Source of the DNA: an uncultured bacterium
GTDB taxonomy: Bacteria; AUK180
Assembly: GCA_937863565.1 (NCBI GenBank)
Contig: CALMGJ010000014.1
Coordinates: forward strand, 23,817-87,816
Reading direction: 5' to 3'
Length of the DNA: 64,000 nucleotides
The notes under the pieces were generated by a model that was given only the letters and a program-made list of their open reading frames with translations, was not told the DNA's origin and did no database searches. Positions 21,306 to 31,108 of this stretch are shown here, piece by piece. Numbering within the stretch: position 1 is the stretch's first letter; each line of letters begins with the position of its first letter. Made by a program: the position numbers and the translations under genes.

Positions 21306-23051
21306 ATGAAAAGAAGGACGATCCTTATTTTCCTGCTTATCGCTGCGAAGATATTCTCTTTCATGGGCGACGAGAACGCCGTTGCGCGCTTCGTTACGGC
21401 TTCGCTGGTGAAGAACGAGGATTCATCCTATATCCTCACCGTTTCTTATTCGATCGAACCCGGTGCGAGGGTTTACCTGAAAAGCGATCTCGAGCTCCCG
21501 CTAGAGCTGAAATTTTCCGAAGGGCGCGAGATCATGCGCGCCGATTTTCCGCATAAAAAATTACACGGGGCCAAGGAGTATATCGAGGGGGACGGGACGA
21601 TAGTGATCATCTTCAAGGGGGACCCGGAAGGAGCCGGACTTTCCGTGCGCTGGCAGGGGTGTTCCGCGGAAAAGGGCGTTTGTTATATACCGGAAGAGAC
21701 CATAGTTTCCCTTGTGCCGGGGAAACTCGTTGCAAGAACGGCAAAACCGAAACCGGAGCAAAAACCGGTCCAGAGAACGGATAAAAAGCTCAAAGGCATT
21801 ATCGAACGCAATATCGACAGGCCGCTTCTGGCCGTGCTTTTCGTTTTTATCGCAGGGTTTTTGACCAGCCTCACACCGTGCGTTTACCCGATGATCCCGA
21901 TCACGATCTCCTATTTCGGAGGAACTGCCGAAGGGATGAAGAAGAATTTCGTTAAAAGCCTTTTCTATGTCCTCGGACTTTCGATCACGTATACTTTCAT
22001 GGGCTTAATCGCGGGCATCACGGGAACAGCATTCGGCAGTCTGACGCAGAACCCTTATGTCCTCTTCGTTTTTACGGCACTGTTCTTCATCATGGCTCTT
22101 ATGATGAGCGATTATATTGCGCTTCCGGGATTTTCCGCTTTTTCCTCCTCTCATTCGAAGATAGCGGCAAAAAGGACCGATCTGAGCGCGTTCCTTCTCG
22201 GACTTATCACGGGCCTTGTGGCATCGCCCTGCGTGGGCCCTGTTGTGCTTTTCCTGCTGACACTCATCGTTTCGAAAGGCAGCATCCTGTACGGCACCAT
22301 GCTCATGTTCTTCTTCTCTCTGGGGCTTGGCGTCATATTTGTGATATTGGGGACTTTCTCGGGACTCATCGAGAAGATCCCGCGCGCTGGAACATGGATG
22401 GAGAAGGTCAAGACGGTTTTTTCCGTTCTTATGGCGGCCGCTTCAGCCTACTTCCTCAATACGGCGCTCAAAGGGCTTATCGGCATCAAGTCGGCATATT
22501 TCGCCTGGGCATTTTTCATATTTACTTCCCTTTTCTTCCTTGATTTCTACGATCTGAAGAGATTCCAGCCTGAAGCGACTCCGCAGGGGCGTAAAAAAAG
22601 CATCGCCAGTTTTATAATGCTGCTTGCGTTCATCTGCGGTTCGGGATTATTCCTCAAAGGCATAATCCATAACGGCACCCGCCCGGCCGTGTCCGAACGG
22701 GCGTTAAAATGGCATAAAGATCTGGAATCGGGTCTGGCAGAAGCCGAAAGGACCGGCAAGTTCATATTCCTGGATTTTACGGCAACATGGTGCGTTATGT
22801 GCAGGGAGTTCGAACATGCCGCCGAAAAAGACAGCGAATTGGCCTCGGCTCTTTCGCGATTCGTTTTGATCAGATTGGATTACGATAAGAACAAGGACCT
22901 GGCGAAAGAGCTCTTCGACGTGAGAGCGTTGCCGGCTTTCATATTCCTCAATGACAAGGGAGAGATCATCGAAAGGGAATCCGGTTTCTCGGATATGAAA
23001 GGATTCAAAGCGGATTTCCTAAAAACGGCGGAAAAGTATATTACTCGATGA
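21306..23051 (+). CDS. dsbD: Thiol:disulfide interchange protein DsbD-like (N-terminal periplasmic domain, DsbD transmembrane core, C-terminal thioredoxin)
   Basis: Transmembrane cysteines in LTPCVYPMIP and ASPCVGPV, a C-terminal WCVMC thioredoxin motif, and a signal peptide. Confidence 0.8.
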   Translation: MKRRTILIFLLIAAKIFSFMGDENAVARFVTASLVKNEDSSYILTVSYSIEPGARVYLKSDLELPLELKFSEGREIMRADFPHKKLHGAKEYIEGDGTIVIIFKGDPEGAGLSVRWQGCSAEKGVCYIPEETIVSLVPGKLVARTAKPKPEQKPVQRTDKKLKGIIERNIDRPLLAVLFVFIAGFLTSLTPCVYPMIPITISYFGGTAEGMKKNFVKSLFYVLGLSITYTFMGLIAGITGTAFGSLTQNPYVLFVFTALFFIMALMMSDYIALPGFSAFSSSHSKIAAKRTDLSAFLLGLITGLVASPCVGPVVLFLLTLIVSKGSILYGTMLMFFFSLGLGVIFVILGTFSGLIEKIPRAGTWMEKVKTVFSVLMAAASAYFLNTALKGLIGIKSAYFAWAFFIFTSLFFLDFYDLKRFQPEATPQGRKKSIASFIMLLAFICGSGLFLKGIIHNGTRPAVSERALKWHKDLESGLAEAERTGKFIFLDFTATWCVMCREFEHAAEKDSELASALSRFVLIRLDYDKNKDLAKELFDVRALPAFIFLNDKGEIIERESGFSDMKGFKADFLKTAEKYITR

Positions 23052-24411
23052 CAAGCAAACCTTCTTTCATCACGACTTTGAAAGTCCTTTTTTTAGGGGC
23101 CTCTTTAAGACGGTTGACGAAGGGCACCATGATCTCGCGTTCTATGAACGAAGATATTTGATTGGGGATCTTCTTCGTTTGTTTGTAATATTCCTGGGCA
23201 AGATGTTCGATCACTTCCTGTGAGCAGGTAAGATTGTATCCTTTGCTCTTCACGATCTCCTTGAGATAAGAGAGTTTTGTTTTGAATATGGCCTTATAAT
23301 CTTCGATCGAAATATCGGAAAAGACATAAATACCGTTAAAAAGAGAAATGAACTCCTCGCCGTATTCCTTTGCGATGAGCTCCTTTATGGCGAGGTCATT
23401 ATTGTCCTCGTCCGGATTCTGGAATCCGATCTTCTTTGTCAGCGTTGAGAGGATGCTCTTGTCGATAGTGAGGATGAATATCGAGTTCTCATAACCTATC
23501 TTCTTTCCCTCGAAGAACACGTAACCCCGGGAGAAAATACTTGTAAGAAGGAAGAACAGGGGTTTGCTGATGAACTCCATGTGTTTGATCAGAAAAACCT
23601 TCCTTTTATCTTTGCCGGTCATCTGGAAAAATATATCCACTTGGGGATCGAGCGGCGGCCTTCCTTCTTCGCTTTTTGATTCCCTGTCGAACATCTCGGT
23701 ATCCGCCATCATGGAAAGTTCCATCTCGGATATGGCCTCTCTGGAACCGTAATATGTTTCCGCGATAGAATACGCCATTTCCGATTTGCCGGTGCTTTTG
23801 TTCCCTATGAACAGGAATATGCCGTTGGGAAGGTACGGTTTCAGGTCAAGATTGAGCGATTTAAGGATGAGAAAATTAGAGATCTCCTTCGTAAAATCCT
23901 TGTTGAGATAAACCTTGTCGAGAAGTTCATGTTCCAGATCGAAAGGATTGGAATGCTTATAGGTCTTTCTTGATTTTGCCGCTTTGTCGAATACGTCAAG
24001 CTCCTTCTGATCGAGGATCTGATTGATCGCCCCGCGTTCGTTCAGCGCCGCAGATGTCTCATTGAAAAGCTCCTCGGGAAAGAGTTTCTGCTGAACGCCC
24101 AGCGTGAGGGCGGAAAGGACGAAGTGATTGAGATCGACGCGGGGCGAGAGGATATTGCCCGCTATCGTATAAGCCCGGGTCATGATCAGATCGAACTCAT
24201 TTTTGTAAGTGAACTCTTCCAGGCGTTTGGAATAGATGTCGTTATACCTCTCGAAAATATCCACAACGAATTTCGCCGAAGAAGCAAGGTATTTTTTCCC
24301 GTGTTCTGTGAAGTACTGAAGCACTTTAAAAATATTCACCGCCTTCTCTTCTATATGATAATGTCCGGTCAATTCGGTGATGAAGTTGCTGAGGCTGTAT
24401 GTGAGTTCCAT
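23041..24411 (-). CDS. Clp/Hsp100-like protein: Clp_N-like N-terminus plus a single D2-type AAA+ module with a degenerate Walker B
   Basis: GIFLFIGNKSTGKS aligns with GSFLFLGPTGVGKT. VFLIKHMEFI replaces the VVLLDEIEKA Walker B, so the DE pair is lost. The C-terminal small domain resembles the ClpB D2 small domain. Confidence 0.6.
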   Translation of the reverse strand: MELTYSLSNFITELTGHYHIEEKAVNIFKVLQYFTEHGKKYLASSAKFVVDIFERYNDIYSKRLEEFTYKNEFDLIMTRAYTIAGNILSPRVDLNHFVLSALTLGVQQKLFPEELFNETSAALNERGAINQILDQKELDVFDKAAKSRKTYKHSNPFDLEHELLDKVYLNKDFTKEISNFLILKSLNLDLKPYLPNGIFLFIGNKSTGKSEMAYSIAETYYGSREAISEMELSMMADTEMFDRESKSEEGRPPLDPQVDIFFQMTGKDKRKVFLIKHMEFISKPLFFLLTSIFSRGYVFFEGKKIGYENSIFILTIDKSILSTLTKKIGFQNPDEDNNDLAIKELIAKEYGEEFISLFNGIYVFSDISIEDYKAIFKTKLSYLKEIVKSKGYNLTCSQEVIEHLAQEYYKQTKKIPNQISSFIEREIMVPFVNRLKEAPKKRTFKVVMKEGLLVIE

Positions 24412-24419
24412 ATACCGTC

Positions 24420-24857
24420 CTAATTTACGAACCCGAGGGCCCGGGGCCTGACTTCATTGTAGATATACGCAACAATATCTATAAAATACGAGAGCTCCGC
24501 GGCGAGTATTTTGGTCTCGCGCATTATGGTGAAAATGATCTCATTCCTTTTTTCGTCAATGGCGAACCTTCCGTGGGACGTATCGTAGTAGTTCAGCTGA
24601 AGAAGGCGCATGAACATGGCCCATTGTTCCTTCGGATTGTGCGGGACCTCTCCCATGTCGGCTGTAAGTTCGGAAAATTCCCCGTTCCTGCGGTCAAGTA
24701 TCTGAAGTCTGAGATTCACCACAGGGCCGTTCTTTGCGACCTTGATGTTCAAAAACCAGAGGCCCTGGGCGTTCTCGGGTTTCTGATAAGGTATCTTGAG
24801 TTTATTGAGGCTCTCTTCCAAAAGCGCGGTGTTCTTTTCCAGATTTCCTTCGGCCAT
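24420..24857 (-). CDS. Hypothetical cytoplasmic protein, YbjN/secretion-chaperone-like (tentative)
   Basis: 145 aa, with an alpha-beta pattern and a ...GRFAIDEKRNEIIF... segment reminiscent of YbjN-family proteins. It lies 8 nt upstream of the Clp-like gene. Confidence 0.4.
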   Translation of the reverse strand: MAEGNLEKNTALLEESLNKLKIPYQKPENAQGLWFLNIKVAKNGPVVNLRLQILDRRNGEFSELTADMGEVPHNPKEQWAMFMRLLQLNYYDTSHGRFAIDEKRNEIIFTIMRETKILAAELSYFIDIVAYIYNEVRPRALGFVN

Positions 24858-24931
24858 CTTTTCCTCCGTTGTATCCCTTTTATGGAATTATATCATTATG
24901 ATGAACATTTCGCAAATAGCATGCGACCCTT

Positions 24932-27900
24932 TTAAAAAACGATATTACCGCCGAACGTTATCTTGAATTCCCTGTAGTCATAACGGATCTCATCCAGATT
25001 GCGGTAGATCGTATACGATATGTTCGAATTGAACACGAAGTTCTTAGAGAACCTGTAATCGAACCCGCCGTTGACCGTATATGTATTCGATTCGGTAGCC
25101 CCGATCTTGTCTGAACGGAGCATCGACATATTGAAATCAAGTTTGGTATTGATGGCGTTCTGTATATTGAGCTTCTTTTTCAAAAAAGGCAATTTGATCC
25201 CGTACTTCAGCTGGAGACGGTAACTGAGAGAAGTGGCCAGGGAAAGCGTGCCGGAAAATGTCCTGTCATAGCCGAACCGCGTATCCGTGTTCTGGTTATA
25301 GGAAACGCGGATGGACTGCGTCAGAACATCTGAATAGCTTATCGGGAAACTCAGTGAAGGCGTGAACGTTTCATTCCGGTACAGGGCATCGGCCTTCTCG
25401 GTGAGGGAATAGTTCATGCCGAGCGTTATGGAAGTTCGCTTAAGGAACTTGAAGAGCTTATCGAGCTGAGTGATCATGGCGCTCGAGTTGACGGAATGAT
25501 TGAATTCCGTTGTCGTAGTGCCTAACTTGGAAGTATCCGACTGTCTGTAGGAATAGGAGCCTGACAGGCTGAGGAACTTGAACGGATTGTAACTTAAAGC
25601 AATATTCCAGCGCTCCTGGTCCGACTGGTTCGCATAGAGTTCAGGTGCAAGGTTGCCCGAGACGATATCAAGAGAATCGATTATACCGAACACGCCGTCG
25701 AACTCCGGTATATCGGTCGCATTAGACCGGTCATAGGAAATATTGAGATTGATCGTACTGAGGCCGAGGATTTTTACGCGTCTTAACAGCATGCCGAGCA
25801 TGAGCCTGTTCTTAAAAGACATATTGAGAGTGAATTTAGCAGAGGAATAGGCCGCTTCACTTGAAACGGCATCTCCGTAATAGACGCGGGCCAGTGTTCC
25901 GCGCAGTGTGACGGTAGGCTGTAGAATGTTCCTCAGAAGGTTCACATTCGCCGTAATGCTGTATGAAGCGTTATCGTTCTGTTTGAACCCGCTCTGATAT
26001 GATTCATTATAATCAAGAGTGTTCTGGAGATTCAGGTATTTGATCGTGAATGAAAGCGTGCCGTTATTGCGGAACGTTCTCGGATTAGAAGCGGATGTAT
26101 TGAAAAGAGGATTGTTCTCAGACAAAGTGATGTTCCGTCCCAGGGCAAGGTTCATGTTCTCTATAAGGAAGAGAATTGATTTCATGCGCATCGTCATTGT
26201 GTGTATCTCACTAAGCGTTTTTCCCTTGAGCAGTTCGTCGCCTTCATAAAGGCCGTAGCTTTTAGACCAGCTCTGTGAATAGGAGTAATTGATCGCGGGA
26301 AGGAATTTCCACAGTATCGTGCCCAGGTTCAATGTCGTGTTGAAACGGATGCTCTCGCTCAGAGACCGCGTAGTGGATGAAGTGCCCGAAAGGTCAAGAA
26401 TGTCCTTGAGTTCCGATGTGTTCCGTGAATAGGAAATATTGACCGGCAGCCATTGCAGTTTAGAGAAATTCATAGTCGCGCTGAGCGCTTCCTGATCGGT
26501 CCCCGTCCTGTTATTGCCAAGCGGGGAGAAATCGCTGCCAACACTTGAATAGTTCACCGCAACGGGCCCGAAGAAACCGAGATCGGTGCTGACATTGGCC
26601 CTGTATGCAGTGCCTTTCAGTATCTTCGGTTCTGAGAGCAGTATATTGTTGAAGAGGAATTTCCCGCTGACTACCGCCTCCGCCTCAATGCAGAGCGCCA
26701 TATATTTAACGTTCAGCGTTGACGGGTTTCCCACCGTTTCATAGGAACTCAGACCGGCTACCGGTATGCTGTTCACCACCCAATCGGAAGAGTCGTAGCC
26801 CTTCTTCACGGAAAGCGGGATCTTCCAGTAATTGTTCTCGTCGATGCCCATCTTGAGATAGACGCTGTAAGCATCGGTATCGGGCATATCGTACCCGAGA
26901 ACGGATAGTTCGAGATAACCGTAATTGGATATGTTCAGCGCTTGAGATTTCACGCTTTTCGTATATCCGGTCCTGATATCCGATGAGGTCCCGATCAGAT
27001 AGAAATCCGTCATCAGGGCCTCCTTATCCGTCTGTTCGCCGGACACGAAGAATCCGGAGAAGCTCGGATCGTCAACGGAAACGGAAGAAACGGCAAAATA
27101 CTCGCCCGCCGTACCGTTCTCGACAATGCCTTTATCCCATCGGTTCCCGGAGATCTTCAGCTCCTGCATCTTGAAGGATATGTTCGCATCGGAACCCTCG
27201 ATCCATACGCGGATGTATTTTACATTGTTCGGAGTGGGATTGCCGTACTTATCCGCTGTGCCGGCGTCGATATTGAGCGGTATTGAAATGAACTGCCAGC
27301 CGTCGTCGTCCGATTTCGTTTTCAGTATCTCGCTTTTATACGAATAATACCTGTCTATCGTGTCCAGTATGCCGTCAAAATCGAAATCTTCCGTTTGAAG
27401 ATAATTGTCGCCCGGCCCCAGCACTGCGGTAAAATAACCGTTATTGAAGATGATGCCTGTGTCCTCGTCCGTATTGAGCCTGCCGTTCAAATCAGCATCT
27501 TCGGTATCCAGCGTGCCGTCGCCGTCGGCATCCTCGGAAATGAGGCCGAGATCGATATGTATCGTAGCGTCTGCGGCATCGCCGAGGTTCTTTACCCAGA
27601 AATCGAGCGATGATTTCTGGGAGATATCGCTGATATTGGACCGTGCCGTGATCCCGCCCCATGTCCCTGCTTTTTTCAGATCGAAGAGCATTGAATAAGC
27701 GGTGAAGGTCTGATATATCTCAGTCTCGTCCGGCGTATACGGATGGCTGTCGCCGTCCTGGAAAGAATAAAACGAGAATTCATTCCCCGGGGAATGGAAT
27801 TCACTATCGCTTTCCTCCACGGAGATCGTGGCCGCTCTTGTGGACTGATCGGTAATAATGCCCGGCTTTGAACAGAGGTACCAGCTCTTGTAGGGATAGA

Positions 27901-30217
27901 GTGAAGGACCCTCGCTCTGCTTAGTTCCTTCCATGGCGTCCAGCGCCGCTTTTCCGAATTTATTGGGATTATTGTATGAATAAGCATATTCGGCCGAGAG
28001 GCTTATGTCTTTCGGCTTCAAGAAGTTGAGCCCCGGTAGGGCGAACAGCGTTTTTTGAAGGAATTCCGAAGTGATCTTGAGCGAAGTGTCAAAATCGAGA
28101 ACGAATTTACTCTGCGATTCCTCTCCCGGGTCAGGTATCTCGTCCCTTTCCATGAACTCTTCATCGATGACAGTGGAACCTATGAAGAAGTTCTTGCTGA
28201 TATTCCATTCCATGCGGTTGCCGAACACGTATTTTTGCTGGGATGAGATGAGCGGCGTATATTCGTAGTTGACCTCGATCTTGGCATCGCCGATGATAAG
28301 GTTCTCGTTGATGAAGGTGATGATGCCGGCATTATAATCTATAGTGTAATCGCGGCCTTTTTTCAGGATATTCCCGTCAACTTTAACAACTTCAGAATTC
28401 TCCTTTATGTTCATTGCGTCCAGGCTGTAGATCTTGGCAACGGAAACGTAATCGAGCGCTATGTAGAATATCGACCGCGAGGTAGTGAAAGGATCCGCCA
28501 GGGAATCGTTCTTGGCGTAAATGGGCCGGTTAGAGCATTTGGATACGATCTCGGTCAACTCCGCCCCGCTGAGGCCGAGCTCGTCAGCGACCGTTTTGAG
28601 ATATCCGGATACCGTATCGTTATCGCTCAGGTCGAAGGGCGTAGCGTCGGGAAAATATAAAATGCCGATATCCGTATCGAGATAACCCCTGTCTATCGTT
28701 CCATCGATGGGATTGAGATCGAGTCCGAAGATGGTGAGATATGAGACTTTTTTACCTTCGGAAGTCGTAAAAACGGCGGGATCATTATCGCCGTCGGAAT
28801 CATTGCGGTTCATAATGGAAACGCTTACATCATCGAACGGTATTCCAGTGATGCCCGTTTTATAGAAGTTCATGAGCGCGTTGCCGGTGTATCTGTTCTG
28901 TTCATGCTTGAGAAATCTGGCATTGCCGAAATAGGATTCGGTGTTCCCGTCCGTATCCAAGTCGTCCGTCGATGCCCCTTCATACCAGAAATCGCCGGGA
29001 TCCTCATCTATCTGGCCGTCCCCATCGTCGTCAAGACCGTCGATCGGGTCCTCGTCAACGAGTCCGTCACCGTCATCGTCCGTTCCCGCTCCCGGGTCTT
29101 CGCTTATCATCCCGTCCATATCGATATCCTTGAACGGTGCGAACGGATCCCCTATCTTCGTTTTTGTGCCCGTGACAATCTCCTCGACCTCGAAGGCCCC
29201 CGCAAGAAGGCCTGTTTCAGCAACTGTCCTATTGAGATAAAGGATGCCGTTCAGAACATCGACATAATAATCCTCTCCTCTCAGCAATTGATCGAAATTC
29301 CATATCTGGATCCCGTTCTGAAGAGGTCCGCAATTGTTTGTGGAGATCGTATTGTTCGTTGTGATCCTGTCATCGTAGAACAACGCTTCCGAATTGGCAA
29401 CGATCCTGTATTTACCGAAAAAATTAAAAATCAGGTCGTCCCATGCCGATTGCGAAGGCGCTGCACCCCGATAAAGAGCGAAAATGGAGTTTTTCGCGTA
29501 TCCCGAATCCGATATTTCCTTTCTTGTAGTGGAAGCATTCTTGGTCCATGTCTTTGCCAGCGATTGACTGTCAGAATATCCCACAATGGGATACATCTGG
29601 AGTTTGCCCGGGATAAGCGGAATGCCCTCGAAAAGGAGATGCCCCTTAATGCCGAAGAAGTTCTTGCTGTATGAAACGAATTGGGTATTGGGAACGGCAA
29701 GATTGATATTTCCCGCTTCTATGGTTTTCAGGAACTCGCCTTCCTTGCCCATGTATTTAAGGGAAATGTTCTTGTCTATGGAAAATGCGTCCTGCGAAGT
29801 ATCATCATATTTGATCAGTATATTCAGCCTCTCGCCTACGACTCCGTTGAGATTTAGCTTCATGTTCTGCTTGAGGTCGAAATTGGATACGGGATCCTTT
29901 AGAGGGTCGTTAGGATATACTTTGTTATTGAAGGAAAGTGAAACATTCTCGAGAATGTTGAGAGAGATATTCCCTATCGTCCCGAACTGAAGTTCCGGCA
30001 GTATGCTCGTTTTGCTGGATTTCAGAATAAAGGCCGGTTTGGGAAGGAAGGACTTTCTGGACCTCAGAAAAGGGTCATCACGCAAAAGCACCAGTTTTTC
30101 CCCGAAGAATGGAGGCAGGCACTGGTCCGGAGACGGTTCATCTTCGATGAGGGTTCCCTTTAGAAGAAAAAATACGGCTAAAACCGCGAGCAATAACTTG
30201 AATTTTTTCGCAAACAT
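24932..30217 (-). CDS. sprA: SprA-like giant outer-membrane protein (candidate T9SS translocon homologue) with Asp-rich calcium-binding inserts
   Basis: Signal peptide. The block NFDLKQNMKLNLNGVVGERLNILIKYDD..AFSIDKNISLKYMGKEGEFLKTIEAGNINLAVPNTQF...FFGIKG matches the SprA N-terminal signature as recalled from memory. The long C-terminal beta-barrel-like region ends in F. Confidence 0.65.
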   Translation of the reverse strand: MFAKKFKLLLAVLAVFFLLKGTLIEDEPSPDQCLPPFFGEKLVLLRDDPFLRSRKSFLPKPAFILKSSKTSILPELQFGTIGNISLNILENVSLSFNNKVYPNDPLKDPVSNFDLKQNMKLNLNGVVGERLNILIKYDDTSQDAFSIDKNISLKYMGKEGEFLKTIEAGNINLAVPNTQFVSYSKNFFGIKGHLLFEGIPLIPGKLQMYPIVGYSDSQSLAKTWTKNASTTRKEISDSGYAKNSIFALYRGAAPSQSAWDDLIFNFFGKYRIVANSEALFYDDRITTNNTISTNNCGPLQNGIQIWNFDQLLRGEDYYVDVLNGILYLNRTVAETGLLAGAFEVEEIVTGTKTKIGDPFAPFKDIDMDGMISEDPGAGTDDDGDGLVDEDPIDGLDDDGDGQIDEDPGDFWYEGASTDDLDTDGNTESYFGNARFLKHEQNRYTGNALMNFYKTGITGIPFDDVSVSIMNRNDSDGDNDPAVFTTSEGKKVSYLTIFGLDLNPIDGTIDRGYLDTDIGILYFPDATPFDLSDNDTVSGYLKTVADELGLSGAELTEIVSKCSNRPIYAKNDSLADPFTTSRSIFYIALDYVSVAKIYSLDAMNIKENSEVVKVDGNILKKGRDYTIDYNAGIITFINENLIIGDAKIEVNYEYTPLISSQQKYVFGNRMEWNISKNFFIGSTVIDEEFMERDEIPDPGEESQSKFVLDFDTSLKITSEFLQKTLFALPGLNFLKPKDISLSAEYAYSYNNPNKFGKAALDAMEGTKQSEGPSLYPYKSWYLCSKPGIITDQSTRAATISVEESDSEFHSPGNEFSFYSFQDGDSHPYTPDETEIYQTFTAYSMLFDLKKAGTWGGITARSNISDISQKSSLDFWVKNLGDAADATIHIDLGLISEDADGDGTLDTEDADLNGRLNTDEDTGIIFNNGYFTAVLGPGDNYLQTEDFDFDGILDTIDRYYSYKSEILKTKSDDDGWQFISIPLNIDAGTADKYGNPTPNNVKYIRVWIEGSDANISFKMQELKISGNRWDKGIVENGTAGEYFAVSSVSVDDPSFSGFFVSGEQTDKEALMTDFYLIGTSSDIRTGYTKSVKSQALNISNYGYLELSVLGYDMPDTDAYSVYLKMGIDENNYWKIPLSVKKGYDSSDWVVNSIPVAGLSSYETVGNPSTLNVKYMALCIEAEAVVSGKFLFNNILLSEPKILKGTAYRANVSTDLGFFGPVAVNYSSVGSDFSPLGNNRTGTDQEALSATMNFSKLQWLPVNISYSRNTSELKDILDLSGTSSTTRSLSESIRFNTTLNLGTILWKFLPAINYSYSQSWSKSYGLYEGDELLKGKTLSEIHTMTMRMKSILFLIENMNLALGRNITLSENNPLFNTSASNPRTFRNNGTLSFTIKYLNLQNTLDYNESYQSGFKQNDNASYSITANVNLLRNILQPTVTLRGTLARVYYGDAVSSEAAYSSAKFTLNMSFKNRLMLGMLLRRVKILGLSTINLNISYDRSNATDIPEFDGVFGIIDSLDIVSGNLAPELYANQSDQERWNIALSYNPFKFLSLSGSYSYRQSDTSKLGTTTTEFNHSVNSSAMITQLDKLFKFLKRTSITLGMNYSLTEKADALYRNETFTPSLSFPISYSDVLTQSIRVSYNQNTDTRFGYDRTFSGTLSLATSLSYRLQLKYGIKLPFLKKKLNIQNAINTKLDFNMSMLRSDKIGATESNTYTVNGGFDYRFSKNFVFNSNISYTIYRNLDEIRYDYREFKITFGGNIVF

Positions 30218-30226
30218 ATATATAAT
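30198..30226 (+). promoter_or_regulatory. Promoter candidate TTGAAT-17-TATAAT for the 30239 operon; the -35 lies inside the first codons of the sprA-like gene
   Basis: Hexamers read directly. The -10 ends 12 nt before the ATG at 30239, and there is no Shine-Dalgarno sequence. Confidence 0.4.
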
Positions 30227-30255
30227 ATTGTAGCAAGTATGTTGAAAAATTACAA
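30227..30255 (-). promoter_or_regulatory. Promoter candidate TTGTAA-17-TACAAT (minus strand) for the sprA-like gene; the -35 lies inside the 30239 gene
   Basis: Hexamers read on the reverse complement. The -10 ends 9 nt before the ATG at 30217. Confidence 0.35.
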
Positions 30256-31108
30256 GTATATTTTACTTTTAGTTCTCGTCTGTTCCGCATATGCCGGATG
30301 TCTGAAAACGCCTCCCGTTCTCTATGATCATTCGATCGCCTTCACAGGGAATACGAAGGGGCTTATCGAACATTGCGGCTGCAAGATCAAAAGGGGACGG
30401 ATACTTGAGCGGTCGCATCTTCTGAAAAAAATCGCCGCCGGTTCCAAAGAGACCTTCTTTTTTGACGGCGGCAACTCGATCACTTCGATCCAGCTCGGGC
30501 GTGTAAAGCTTCTCAAGGTCATGGAATACATGGGGTATTCCGCGTACTTCGTGACCGCATACGAGTACAAAGACCTTCAGCTTTTCTTCAATGATGAGAT
30601 AAAAGGGTCGTCCATCGAATTCTCTTCCGCCGTCATCGCGGATAATGAAGGCCGTCCGCTTTTGAAGCCTTTCATTGAAAGGTCTTTCGGACGTGAGAAG
30701 GCGATGTTCGTATCTGTCACGGGGCATACGAATGTGCCGGGATACTACAATGATATTAAACTGGTCTCTCCGGGCGAGGCGATCGAGGGGATCAAGATCC
30801 GCGCCGGCGAGTTCGACTGGATCTTTCTTATTACGGATTTTCCCGAAATGGACCTTTGGATCAAAGAGGCCGGCATTAAGAACGTTAGATATATCTATCA
30901 TCTGGACAAGGATTTCACGGTCGAAGAACCGTATGTTTCTGTGTCGGGCGCGCAGGTATTCACGCTCAACTCTTCGGGACAGTTCTTCTGGCAGATCGGC
31001 ATGAAATATGAAAATAGCGAAATGGTACCCCGCTATATTCTCAACGATGTGAAGATGGGCGTACCGATAGACAAGGACCTGAAAAAATATTTGGAGGAGC
31101 TTAAATGA
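30239..31108 (+). CDS. Hypothetical secreted protein or lipoprotein; possible degenerate metallophosphatase/5'-nucleotidase-like domain with an HCGC motif
   Basis: Signal peptide with ...AYAGC. IAFTGNTKGLIEHCGC sits where DxHG metal ligands would be expected. Confidence 0.5.
   Translation: MLKNYKYILLLVLVCSAYAGCLKTPPVLYDHSIAFTGNTKGLIEHCGCKIKRGRILERSHLLKKIAAGSKETFFFDGGNSITSIQLGRVKLLKVMEYMGYSAYFVTAYEYKDLQLFFNDEIKGSSIEFSSAVIADNEGRPLLKPFIERSFGREKAMFVSVTGHTNVPGYYNDIKLVSPGEAIEGIKIRAGEFDWIFLITDFPEMDLWIKEAGIKNVRYIYHLDKDFTVEEPYVSVSGAQVFTLNSSGQFFWQIGMKYENSEMVPRYILNDVKMGVPIDKDLKKYLEELK

What the first reader, a model, noticed from the sequence alone, without database searches (positions are those of the whole stretch)
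23041..30217. SprA-like translocon gene is followed by a YbjN-like protein and a Walker-B-less Clp-like AAA+ protein
Seen:
- Three co-directional minus-strand genes are separated by gaps of 74 nt and 8 nt.
- The last protein aligns by eye to the ClpB/ClpA D2 module (GIFLFIGNKSTGKS...). Its Walker B DE pair is replaced by KH (VFLIKHMEF).
- It has a Clp_N-like N-terminus.
- The middle 145-aa protein looks like a YbjN/secretion-chaperone fold.

Established knowledge: SprA is the T9SS outer-membrane translocon. T9SS is energised by the proton-motive GldLM motor, and no cytoplasmic ATPase or chaperone is part of the canonical system.

Inference: this could be a cytoplasmic nucleotide-binding but probably non-hydrolysing Clp-like adaptor plus a small chaperone, genetically tied to a SprA homologue. 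That would be an unusual accessory module. The linkage could also be coincidental.
Basis: partly seen in the sequence, partly recalled or inferred. Interest (0 to 1): 0.62.

Follow-up and report, generated by a model that had tools for sequence, protein, structure and literature searches.

The report
Dead Clp-like protein keeping ClpP loop
Next to a secretion-pore gene lies a gene pair found in all nine species of one tiny uncultured bacterial phylum: a small chaperone-shaped protein and a Clp-type motor that has lost its ATP-splitting residues but keeps the loop that normally plugs into the ClpP protease, so it probably serves protein breakdown, not secretion.

Summary
Three co-directional minus-strand genes lie 74 and 8 nt apart: a shortened SprA/Sov homologue (1761 aa), a 145-aa protein (P2) with a type III secretion chaperone/YbjN-like fold, and a 456-aa Clp/Hsp100 D2-like protein (P3) whose Walker B DE is KH.

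The proposed T9SS link is weak:
- P2-P3 is a tightly coupled pair in all 9 species genomes of this small phylum.
- It follows sprA in only 3 of 6 genera. In one genus of the same family sprA and the pair lie on different contigs. In the one sister-family genome where both neighbourhoods could be read, the pair follows a small TPR gene and sprA is followed by an unrelated gene.
- The P3 family has only 3 clusters (50% identity) among 1.84 billion proteins, so it is not a general T9SS accessory.

New result: P3 derives from a ClpC-type D2 ring.
- It lacks Walker B, the Arg finger and the pore-loop tyrosine. In this family it also lacks sensor 2.
- It keeps the P-loop.
- Its most conserved 6-residue stretch is KKIGFQ, aligned with the ClpP-docking [LIV]-G-[FL] loop of ClpC and ClpA.

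Best reading (inferred): a nucleotide-binding, non-hydrolysing, non-threading protein that docks on ClpP, with P2 as its client-binding partner. No experiment or transcript data were available.

The parts
24932..30217 (-). Shortened SprA/Sov-like T9SS outer-membrane translocon homologue (1761 aa). It is a neighbour of the module, not shown to be part of it.
   Evidence: TIGR04189 at 214.9 bits against a cut-off of 200. The genome has at least 22 T9SS C-terminal sorting domains over the TIGR04183 cut-off.
24887..24915 (-). Promoter-like element (TTGCGA, 17-nt spacer, TG-extended TATAAT) inside the 74-nt sprA/P2 gap. It could give P2-P3 their own transcript.
   Evidence: With 10 of 12 matches it ties for the best score in 22800-30500. 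It is a consensus match only. In genus g4 the same gap is only 16-17 nt.
24420..24857 (-). P2: a 145-aa cytoplasmic protein with a type III secretion class I chaperone / YbjN-like fold.
   Evidence: AlphaFold pLDDT 86.8, pTM 0.81. Foldseek matches ExsC, CesT, SycE and 2plg with TM 0.6-0.7. Pfam CesT_Tir_1 E=6e-4, below cut-off. Present in 9 of 9 phylum genomes.
23041..24411 (-). P3: a 456-aa protein with a helical N-domain and a single ClpC-type D2 AAA+ module with degenerate catalytic motifs.
24037..24411 (-). P3 N-terminal helical domain (residues 1-125), possibly Clp_N-like.
   Evidence: The AlphaFold model has 7 helices, pLDDT mostly 84-94. hhalign against a Clp_N profile gives probability 68.5%. 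No significant Pfam or PDB sequence hit.
23782..23805 (-). P3 Walker A / P-loop, GNKSTGKS (residues 203-210), retained.
   Evidence: G203, G208 and K209 are invariant in 7 sequences. It aligns with GPTGVGKT of the genome's own ClpC.
23575..23598 (-). P3 degenerate Walker B, VFLIKHME (residues 272-279). Lys276 sits at the Asp position and His277 at the catalytic Glu position.
   Evidence: K276 is invariant across both families. It aligns with ILFDEMEK of the genome's own ClpC. 145 of the 150 best library hits have DE here.
23419..23436 (-). P3 KKIGFQ loop (residues 326-331). It lies where ClpA, ClpC and ClpX carry the ClpP-docking [LIV]-G-[FL] loop.
   Evidence: It is the most conserved 6-residue window of the family (0.93). 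K326, I328, G329 and F330 are invariant. It aligns with KKLGFN of the genome's own ClpC and with KSIGLI of the ClpB/ClpA-loop chimera 5ofo. pLDDT is below 50 at residues 325-335, consistent with a flexible loop.

Best explanation
The 145-aa gene (P2) and the 456-aa gene (P3) form a self-contained two-gene module. It is present in all nine species genomes of a very small uncultured phylum. In this genus it happens to lie behind sprA.

P3 descends from a ClpC-type D2 AAA+ ring.
- Shown from sequence: it keeps the P-loop and the D2 small domain.
- Shown from sequence: it has lost the Walker B Asp-Glu (now Lys-His), the arginine finger, the pore-loop tyrosine and, in this family, sensor 2. Sensor 1 is Asp or Asn within the family.
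- Shown from sequence: it keeps, as its most conserved stretch, the K-x-I-G-F loop that in ClpA, ClpC and ClpX docks into the hydrophobic pockets of ClpP.

Inferred mechanism: P3 binds nucleotide without hydrolysing it. It assembles as a static ring or cap that docks on the genome's single ClpP through the IGF-type loops, and it cannot thread substrates.

Inferred role of P2: it is a dimer of the secretion-chaperone fold, which typically holds a partner segment in an extended state. P2 would bind the helical N-domain of P3 and bring or hold a specific client at ClpP. That client would then be degraded without ATP. Alternatively, ClpP would be kept occupied and unavailable to ClpX or ClpC.

The module is most likely not a T9SS component.
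For: Pair conservation:
- P2 is found in 9 of 9 phylum genomes and P3 orthologues in all of them.
- The two genes are always adjacent, 8-18 nt apart or overlapping.

Catalytic decay and retained motifs:
- The alignment with the genome's own ClpC D2 shows each motif.
- Lys at the Walker B Asp position is invariant and unique among the 150 best library hits.

ClpP loop:
- KKIGFQ is the top-conserved 6-residue window of the family.
- It aligns with ClpC KKLGFN.
- The best PDB match of the family profile is the ClpB chimera carrying the ClpA ClpP-loop (5ofo, 149.9 bits, against 135-137 bits for plain ClpB chains).
- 57 of the 150 best hits lack such a motif, so the D2 fold does not require it.
- IGF loops dock into the ClpP H sites (review PMC9035409).

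Partners available: one ClpP with an adjacent ClpX in the phylum, and a canonical ClpC with an LGF loop.

P2 fold. No FlhA/SctV homologue in 9 of 9 genomes, so P2 is not a real T3SS chaperone.

Independence from sprA.
Against: - No binding, ATPase or expression data exist.
- The loop could be conserved for a reason other than ClpP docking.
- Oligomeric state is unknown. Without an Arg finger and with Lys in Walker B, nucleotide-dependent ring assembly is not guaranteed.
- No interaction between P2 and P3 was computed.
- In genus g4 the sprA-P2 gap is only 16-17 nt, which suggests co-transcription with sprA there. A functional tie to envelope biogenesis in this family is therefore not excluded.
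- The sister family keeps sensor 1 Asn and the sensor 2 GAR motif, so some residual nucleotide chemistry there cannot be ruled out.
Confidence: 0.45

Rival explanations
1. One reading: P2 and P3 are a cytoplasmic accessory of the SprA translocon or the T9SS. For example, they could be a holdase that keeps the 1761-aa SprA precursor, or T9SS cargo, export-competent before Sec translocation.
For: - sprA-P2-P3 are adjacent and co-directional in 3 of 4 genera of this family.
- The sprA-P2 gap is only 16-17 nt with a Shine-Dalgarno sequence in genus g4.
- The genome has a working-looking T9SS cargo set.
- P2 has a secretion-chaperone fold.
Against: - The pair is separated from sprA in genus g3, and in the sister-family genome (G007) where both neighbourhoods could be read. 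P2-P3 stays intact in all of them.
- A promoter-like element lies in the 74-nt gap here.
- The P3 and P2 families are absent outside this phylum, although SprA/T9SS is widespread.
- Flanking genes (FHA and lipoprotein genes, and DsbD in genus g2) are kept alongside the trio, so the synteny is generic.
- This reading does not explain the invariant ClpP-type loop.
Confidence: 0.12
2. A ClpP-independent module. P3 would be a static nucleotide-sensing scaffold or holdase. P2 would be a partner-switching or sequestering protein, as ExsC and CesT act in regulation. Together they would control some phylum-specific cytoplasmic process. The IGF-like loop would be re-used for another contact.
For: - T3S-chaperone-fold proteins act as regulators outside secretion: ExsC-ExsE and CesT-CsrA are among the top structural matches.
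- The pore loop and all hydrolysis motifs are gone.
- In the sister family a cytoplasmic TPR protein is co-operonic, a typical scaffold partner.
Against: It gives no reason why the exact K-x-[LIV]-G-F tripeptide context of ClpC should be the most conserved stretch after the two families have diverged to about 20% identity.
Confidence: 0.25
3. P3 is still an active ATPase or unfoldase that uses non-canonical catalytic residues, such as the invariant Glu279 three residues after the Walker B lysine, and works as a specialised ClpP-coupled unfoldase.
For: - The P-loop is intact, and K276 and E279 are invariant.
- The sister family keeps sensor 1 Asn, the sensor 2 GAR motif and a recognisable pore-loop frame, GP(M/L)MGH(L/V)GT.
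Against: - Walker B Asp and Glu and the Arg finger are missing in all members.
- The pore-loop tyrosine is missing in all members. In this family the loop is replaced by an acidic, low-confidence insert.
- 145 of the 150 nearest D2 relatives keep DE.
Confidence: 0.08

Closest known systems
ClpC / ClpA / ClpE D2 ring (class I Clp/Hsp100 unfoldases that partner with ClpP)
   Same: - D2 large and small AAA+ subdomains: profile E=1e-40 to 1e-29 against ClpC, ClpE and ClpA structures.
- P-loop.
- A helix-loop-helix carrying a [LIV]-G-[FL] tripeptide at the same position as the genome's own ClpC KKLGFN.
- Possibly a Clp_N-like N-domain.
   Different: - Single ring: no D1 and no M-domain.
- Walker B DE is replaced by K[HNS], and the Arg finger by Leu or Lys.
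- The pore-loop Tyr is lost. Sensor 2 Arg is lost in this family.
- It cannot be filed as a functional Clp ATPase.
ClpB / Hsp104 D2
   Same: Comparable profile and fold similarity over D2.
   Different: In the profile alignments, plain ClpB chains scored below the chimera that carries the ClpA ClpP loop. That ClpB and Hsp104 lack the ClpP-docking loop is stated from my own knowledge. P3 has the loop, so P3 is ClpC/ClpA-like and not ClpB-like.
Type III secretion class I chaperones (CesT, SycE, ExsC, SicP) and the related YbjN family
   Same: The alpha-beta3-alpha-beta2-alpha fold, with Foldseek probability 1.0 and TM 0.6-0.7. A sub-threshold Pfam CesT_Tir_1 hit. NCBI names some orthologues 'type III secretion system chaperone'.
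   Different: None of the 9 genomes has an FlhA/SctV export-gate homologue, so no T3SS or flagellar export apparatus was detected. The partner gene is a Clp-like protein, not an effector.
Torsin with LAP1/LULL1, and other AAA+ pseudo-ATPases (from my own knowledge, not tested here)
   Same: These are Clp-D2-related AAA+ folds in which catalytic elements are missing and function depends on partners rather than on threading.
   Different: Torsin keeps Walker B and lacks only the Arg finger. LAP1 and LULL1 do not bind nucleotide. None carries a ClpP-docking loop.
ATP-independent protease caps (proteasome PA28/PA200, mycobacterial Bpa/PafE) and ADEP antibiotics acting on ClpP (analogy; from my own knowledge)
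   Same: The concept of a non-ATPase ligand of the protease's activator pockets. ADEPs bind the same H sites as IGF loops.
   Different: I know of no natural protein ATP-independent cap described for bacterial ClpP. This is an analogy, not a membership.

Membership tests
SprA/Sov T9SS translocon (TIGR04189) | Score above the curated equivalog cut-off | tested here: met
   214.9 bits against a cut-off of 200, in 4 stretches. The protein is 1761 aa against a 2319-position model, so it is a shortened form.
SprA/Sov T9SS translocon (TIGR04189) | Genome encodes T9SS cargo with C-terminal sorting domains | tested here: met
   22 matches over the TIGR04183 cut-off in G000. The GldM equivalog model found nothing, but the control genomes also gave nothing, so that result is uninformative.
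Clp/Hsp100 D2 AAA+ ATPase | Walker A GxxxxGK[ST] | tested here: met
   GNKSTGKS, with G203, G208 and K209 invariant.
Clp/Hsp100 D2 AAA+ ATPase | Walker B hhhhDE (Mg2+ coordination and catalytic base) | tested here: not met
   VFLIKH in this genome. K[HNS] in all 7 members. 145 of the 150 best library hits have DE.
Clp/Hsp100 D2 AAA+ ATPase | Arginine finger (the R of FLNRID) | tested here: not met
   FISLFN in this family (Leu) and FLNKID in the sister family (Lys).
Clp/Hsp100 D2 AAA+ ATPase | Sensor 1 Asn and sensor 2 Arg (GAR motif) | tested here: not met
   In this genome: LTID (Asp) and KIPNQI (no Arg). Sensor 1 is Asp or Asn across the family. The sister family keeps TSN and GAR.
Clp/Hsp100 D2 AAA+ ATPase | Pore-1 loop aromatic residue (GYVG) | tested here: not met
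   In this family it is replaced by an acidic insert with pLDDT below 50. In the sister family the Tyr is His.
ClpP-partner Clp ATPases (ClpA/ClpC/ClpE/ClpX) | [LIV]-G-[FL] ClpP-docking loop after sensor 1 | tested here: met
   KKIGF is invariant and is the most conserved 6-residue window. It aligns with the genome's own ClpC KKLGFN and with the ClpA loop in 5ofo. Actual binding to ClpP cannot be tested with these tools.
Clp_N (N-terminal double four-helix repeat) | Significant profile similarity to Clp_N | tested here: inconclusive
   hhalign probability 68.5%, pairwise E=4.6e-5. Pfam found no Clp_N hit. The PDB profile search gave only E=1.2 to the HSP101 N-domain. The model has 7 helices in 125 residues.
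T3SS class I chaperone / YbjN-like superfamily | Fold (alpha-beta3-alpha-beta2-alpha) | tested here: met
   The dimer state was not tested.
T3SS class I chaperone / YbjN-like superfamily | Pfam family score above the gathering cut-off | tested here: not met
   CesT_Tir_1 scores 20.2 bits against a cut-off of 27. No YbjN (PF10722) hit was listed.
T3SS class I chaperone (functional sense) | A T3SS or flagellar export apparatus in the genome | tested here: not met
   PF00771 (FlhA/SctV) is absent in 9 of 9 genomes, while it was found in 4 of the 14 control genomes.

The most novel reading that the evidence does not exclude
P3 is a natural, hydrolysis-dead, ATP-sensing cap for ClpP. A ClpC-derived ring would have given up unfolding but would still plug its IGF-type loops into ClpP. 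A secretion-chaperone-fold partner (P2) would feed it extended client segments. This would be a bacterial ClpP counterpart of the ATP-independent proteasome activators, and a protein equivalent of ADEP-type ClpP ligands.
Probability: 0.3. Interest if true: 0.75.

Novelty: new variant of a known kind. Interest (0 to 1): 0.5.

Why it matters
If P3 docks on ClpP without hydrolysing ATP, it would be, to my knowledge, the first natural protein that occupies or opens ClpP without energy use. So far that role is known only for antibiotics such as ADEPs and for engineered Walker B mutants. It would show how an unfoldase can evolve into a static regulator while keeping only its nucleotide pocket and its protease-docking loop.

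It would also give a non-secretion role to the type III chaperone fold in a lineage where no T3SS or flagellar export gate was detected.

For T9SS biology the result is negative. It gives no good evidence for a cytoplasmic ATPase or chaperone attached to SprA.

Tried and rejected
- Word-indexed homologue searches found only 4 true P3 relatives and, with P2 alone, none. The P2 profile found 9 further clusters, some annotated only as '[bacterium]'.
- The genome-contig scan with the P3 profile returned only canonical Clp genes from unrelated phyla.
- The GldM equivalog search was uninformative because it also found nothing in the control genomes.
- Pfam and PDB sequence searches with the N-domain gave nothing significant.
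- The TPR gene that precedes the pair in the sister family has no clear orthologue in this genome, only generic TPR hits.
- The ABC genes upstream of the pair in the sister family are DrrA/DrrB-like, not GldA/GldF. A gliding or T9SS link through them is rejected.
- Earlier notes found by sequence: none.
- 'P2 is a true T3SS chaperone' is rejected, because no export gate gene is present.
- 'P3 is ClpB-like' is rejected in favour of ClpC/ClpA-like, because of the ClpP loop.
Full report
**1. The observation**

The three minus-strand ORFs exist exactly as described:
- 24932-30217, 1761 aa
- 24420-24857, 145 aa (P2)
- 23041-24411, 456 aa (P3)

The gaps between them are 74 nt and 8 nt.

The large protein passes the NCBIfam equivalog model for the T9SS translocon Sov/SprA (214.9 bits, cut-off 200). 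It is about 550 residues shorter than the model. The genome is 2.27 Mb in 38 contigs and 95.5% complete. It carries at least 22 proteins with a T9SS C-terminal sorting domain, so a T9SS is plausibly in use.

**2. P3 is a Clp D2 derivative with dead catalytic motifs**

P3 alone gives only weak Pfam hits (AAA_2, ClpB_D2-small) and hits of about 1e-12 to D2 of ClpK, ClpB, ClpA and ClpV.
- A profile of seven family members matches D2 of solved ClpB, ClpC, ClpE, ClpA and Hsp104 structures at 1e-42 to 1e-29.
- The AlphaFold model (pLDDT 77.6) matches the same structures in Foldseek.

I aligned the family with D2 of the genome's own canonical ClpC (822 aa, G000:C3). The motifs compare as follows:

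| Motif | Own ClpC | This family (f1) | Sister family (f2) |
|---|---|---|---|
| Walker A | GPTGVGKT | GNKSTGKS (window) | GQRGVGKT |
| Pore loop | GAPPGYVGY | acidic insert, pLDDT below 50 | GP(M/L)MGH(L/V)GT |
| Walker B | ILFDEMEK | VFLIKHME (window) | (V/I)ILLKSIE |
| Sensor 1 | FTSN | LTID (Asp or Asn in the family) | TSN |
| Arg finger | FLNRID | FISLFN (window) | FLNKID |
| Sensor 2 | YGARPL | KIPNQI (window) | FGARG |

The lysine at the Walker B aspartate position is invariant.

**3. What P3 keeps**

The most conserved 6-residue window of the whole family is KKIGFQ (residues 326-331, mean column conservation 0.93). It ranks ahead of the P-loop region. K326, I328, G329 and F330 are invariant, although the two families share only about 20% identity.
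- The segment lies directly after the sensor 1 strand.
- It aligns with KKLGFN of the genome's own ClpC.
- It aligns with KSIGLI of the ClpB chimera that carries the ClpA ClpP-binding loop. That chimera (5ofo) is the best-scoring PDB entry for the profile, at 149.9 bits against 135-137 bits for plain ClpB chains.

In ClpX, ClpA and ClpC, this [LIV]-G-[FL] 'IGF loop' docks into the hydrophobic H sites of ClpP (review PMC9035409). That ClpB and Hsp104 lack the loop is from my own knowledge. In line with this, 57 of the 150 best hits have no such motif.

The phylum has one canonical ClpP per genome, next to clpX.

A protein that has let every hydrolysis and threading element decay, while holding its nucleotide pocket and its ClpP loop invariant, is most simply read as a nucleotide-binding, non-hydrolysing, non-threading ClpP-docking protein. 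This step is inference. No binding data exist.

**4. The N-domain of P3**

Residues 1-125 are predicted confidently as a seven-helix bundle.
- Sequence searches against Pfam and PDB gave nothing significant.
- A profile-profile comparison with 24 Clp N-domains gave probability 68.5%.

'Clp_N-like' is plausible but not established.

**5. P2**

The model of P2 (pLDDT 86.8, pTM 0.81) has the alpha-beta3-alpha-beta2-alpha topology. Its Foldseek matches are type III secretion class I chaperones (ExsC, CesT, SycE, SicP, SpcU) and chain 2plg from Synechococcus.
- Pfam gives a sub-threshold CesT_Tir_1 hit.
- NCBI labels some orthologues 'type III secretion system chaperone'.
- None of the nine genomes of the phylum has an FlhA/SctV export gate.

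The fold assignment therefore holds, but the functional name does not.

**6. Distribution and linkage**

The lineage is very small. The genome collection holds nine species in six genera and two families for the whole phylum.
- P2 is in 9 of 9 genomes and P3 orthologues are in all of them.
- The two genes are always adjacent, 8-18 nt apart or overlapping.
- Outside the phylum the family is absent. An exhaustive HMM search of 1.84 billion representatives found three family clusters (660, 657 and 549 bits). The next hit, at 267 bits, is an ordinary multi-D2 Clp protein with an intact DE.

Linkage to sprA is much weaker:
- sprA-P2-P3 is kept in genera g1, g2 and g4 of this family. The upstream lipoprotein and FHA genes, and the downstream DsbD gene in g2, are kept too.
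- In genus g3 the pair lies on another contig next to a UshA-like gene, and sprA is followed by a nitroreductase-like gene.
- In the sister family the pair is the end of a TPR-P2-P3 unit on all three contigs read. In G007 a DrrAB-like ABC exporter lies further upstream, and sprA there is followed by a convergent, unrelated gene.
- In this window the 74-nt gap holds one of the two best promoter-like matches of the region, with an extended -10 element.
- Against this, genus g4 has only 16-17 nt between sprA and P2. Co-transcription there is likely.

With only two families, the ancestral arrangement cannot be polarised. Overall the rearrangements split sprA from the pair but never split the pair. 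P2-P3 is the functional unit, and sprA is a neighbour in part of one family.

**7. Mechanism and rivals**

*Best reading (0.45).* P3 forms a nucleotide-bound static cap on ClpP through its IGF-type loops. P2, docked on the P3 N-domain, supplies or holds a client in an extended state. The outcome is either ATP-independent degradation of that client or occupation of ClpP against ClpX and ClpC. Clp-ClpP complexes need bound ATP but not hydrolysis (from my own knowledge of ATPgammaS and Walker B mutant studies), which makes such a cap physically reasonable.

*Rivals:*
- A ClpP-independent scaffold or partner-switch module (0.25).
- A SprA/T9SS-dedicated accessory, as first proposed (0.12).
- A still-active non-canonical ATPase (0.08).

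**8. Novelty and limits**

The pair is an undescribed, phylum-restricted family. I found no description of it in the two literature searches I ran. It is a new variant of a known kind: a Clp/Hsp100 derivative.

Everything beyond sequence, fold and synteny is inferred.

Noticed in passing
L002:1495-3636 (G000:C28:66729-68870, minus strand): This is a second degenerate Clp-like protein in the same genome, 713 aa. Its D1 looks intact (GRAGVGKT, ILFFDEIH). Its D2 has Walker B VFTGLE, no sensor 1 Asn, no Arg finger and no sensor 2 Arg. It still has the pore loop GSPPGYVGY and an SMGF ClpP-type loop. It shares the TGKSEM P-loop context with P3. It seems sporadic: most genomes of the same family show only P3 plus ClpC.
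   Followed up: partly
G000 whole genome: Only three Clp D2-type genes were found. The canonical one has an LGF loop and a short middle region, so it is ClpC-type. No ClpB-type disaggregase was detected in this 95.5%-complete genome.
   Followed up: partly
window 27350-29130 (inside the sprA-like gene): The shortened SprA homologue contains Asp-rich DxDxDG-type repeats (for example DPGAGTDDDGDGLVDEDPIDGLDDDGDGQIDED and DADGDGTLDTEDADLNGRLNTDED) that look like calcium-binding inserts. An earlier first-stage note also flags them.
   Followed up: no
window 30198-30255: The start codons of sprA and of the divergent lipoprotein-FHA-cyclase operon are 21 nt apart. They have interleaved promoter-like hexamers on both strands (TTGAAT-17-TATAAT on plus, TTGTAA-17-TACAAT on minus), reproduced.
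   Followed up: partly
L024:5648-6502, L025:4546-5397, L026:1280-2143: In genus g2 a 283-287-aa gene (starting MNRTARFDFPDSYFHIISRGQRK...) is inserted between DsbD and P3. Its orientation differs between genomes, which suggests a mobile element. I did not run it against any family library.
   Followed up: no
L029:809-1258, L030:2412-2858, L111:136-582: In the sister family a 148-aa TPR protein precedes P2-P3 by 9-63 nt. It has no obvious signal peptide and gives weak YbgF/BamD-type TPR hits. No clear orthologue exists in the window's genome.
   Followed up: partly
G000:C12:121256-122431: The clpX match starts at model position 27 and reads through one TAA (also in G001 and G004). This may mean a shortened or differently started N-terminal zinc-binding domain, or it may only reflect the overlap with clpP.
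   Followed up: no
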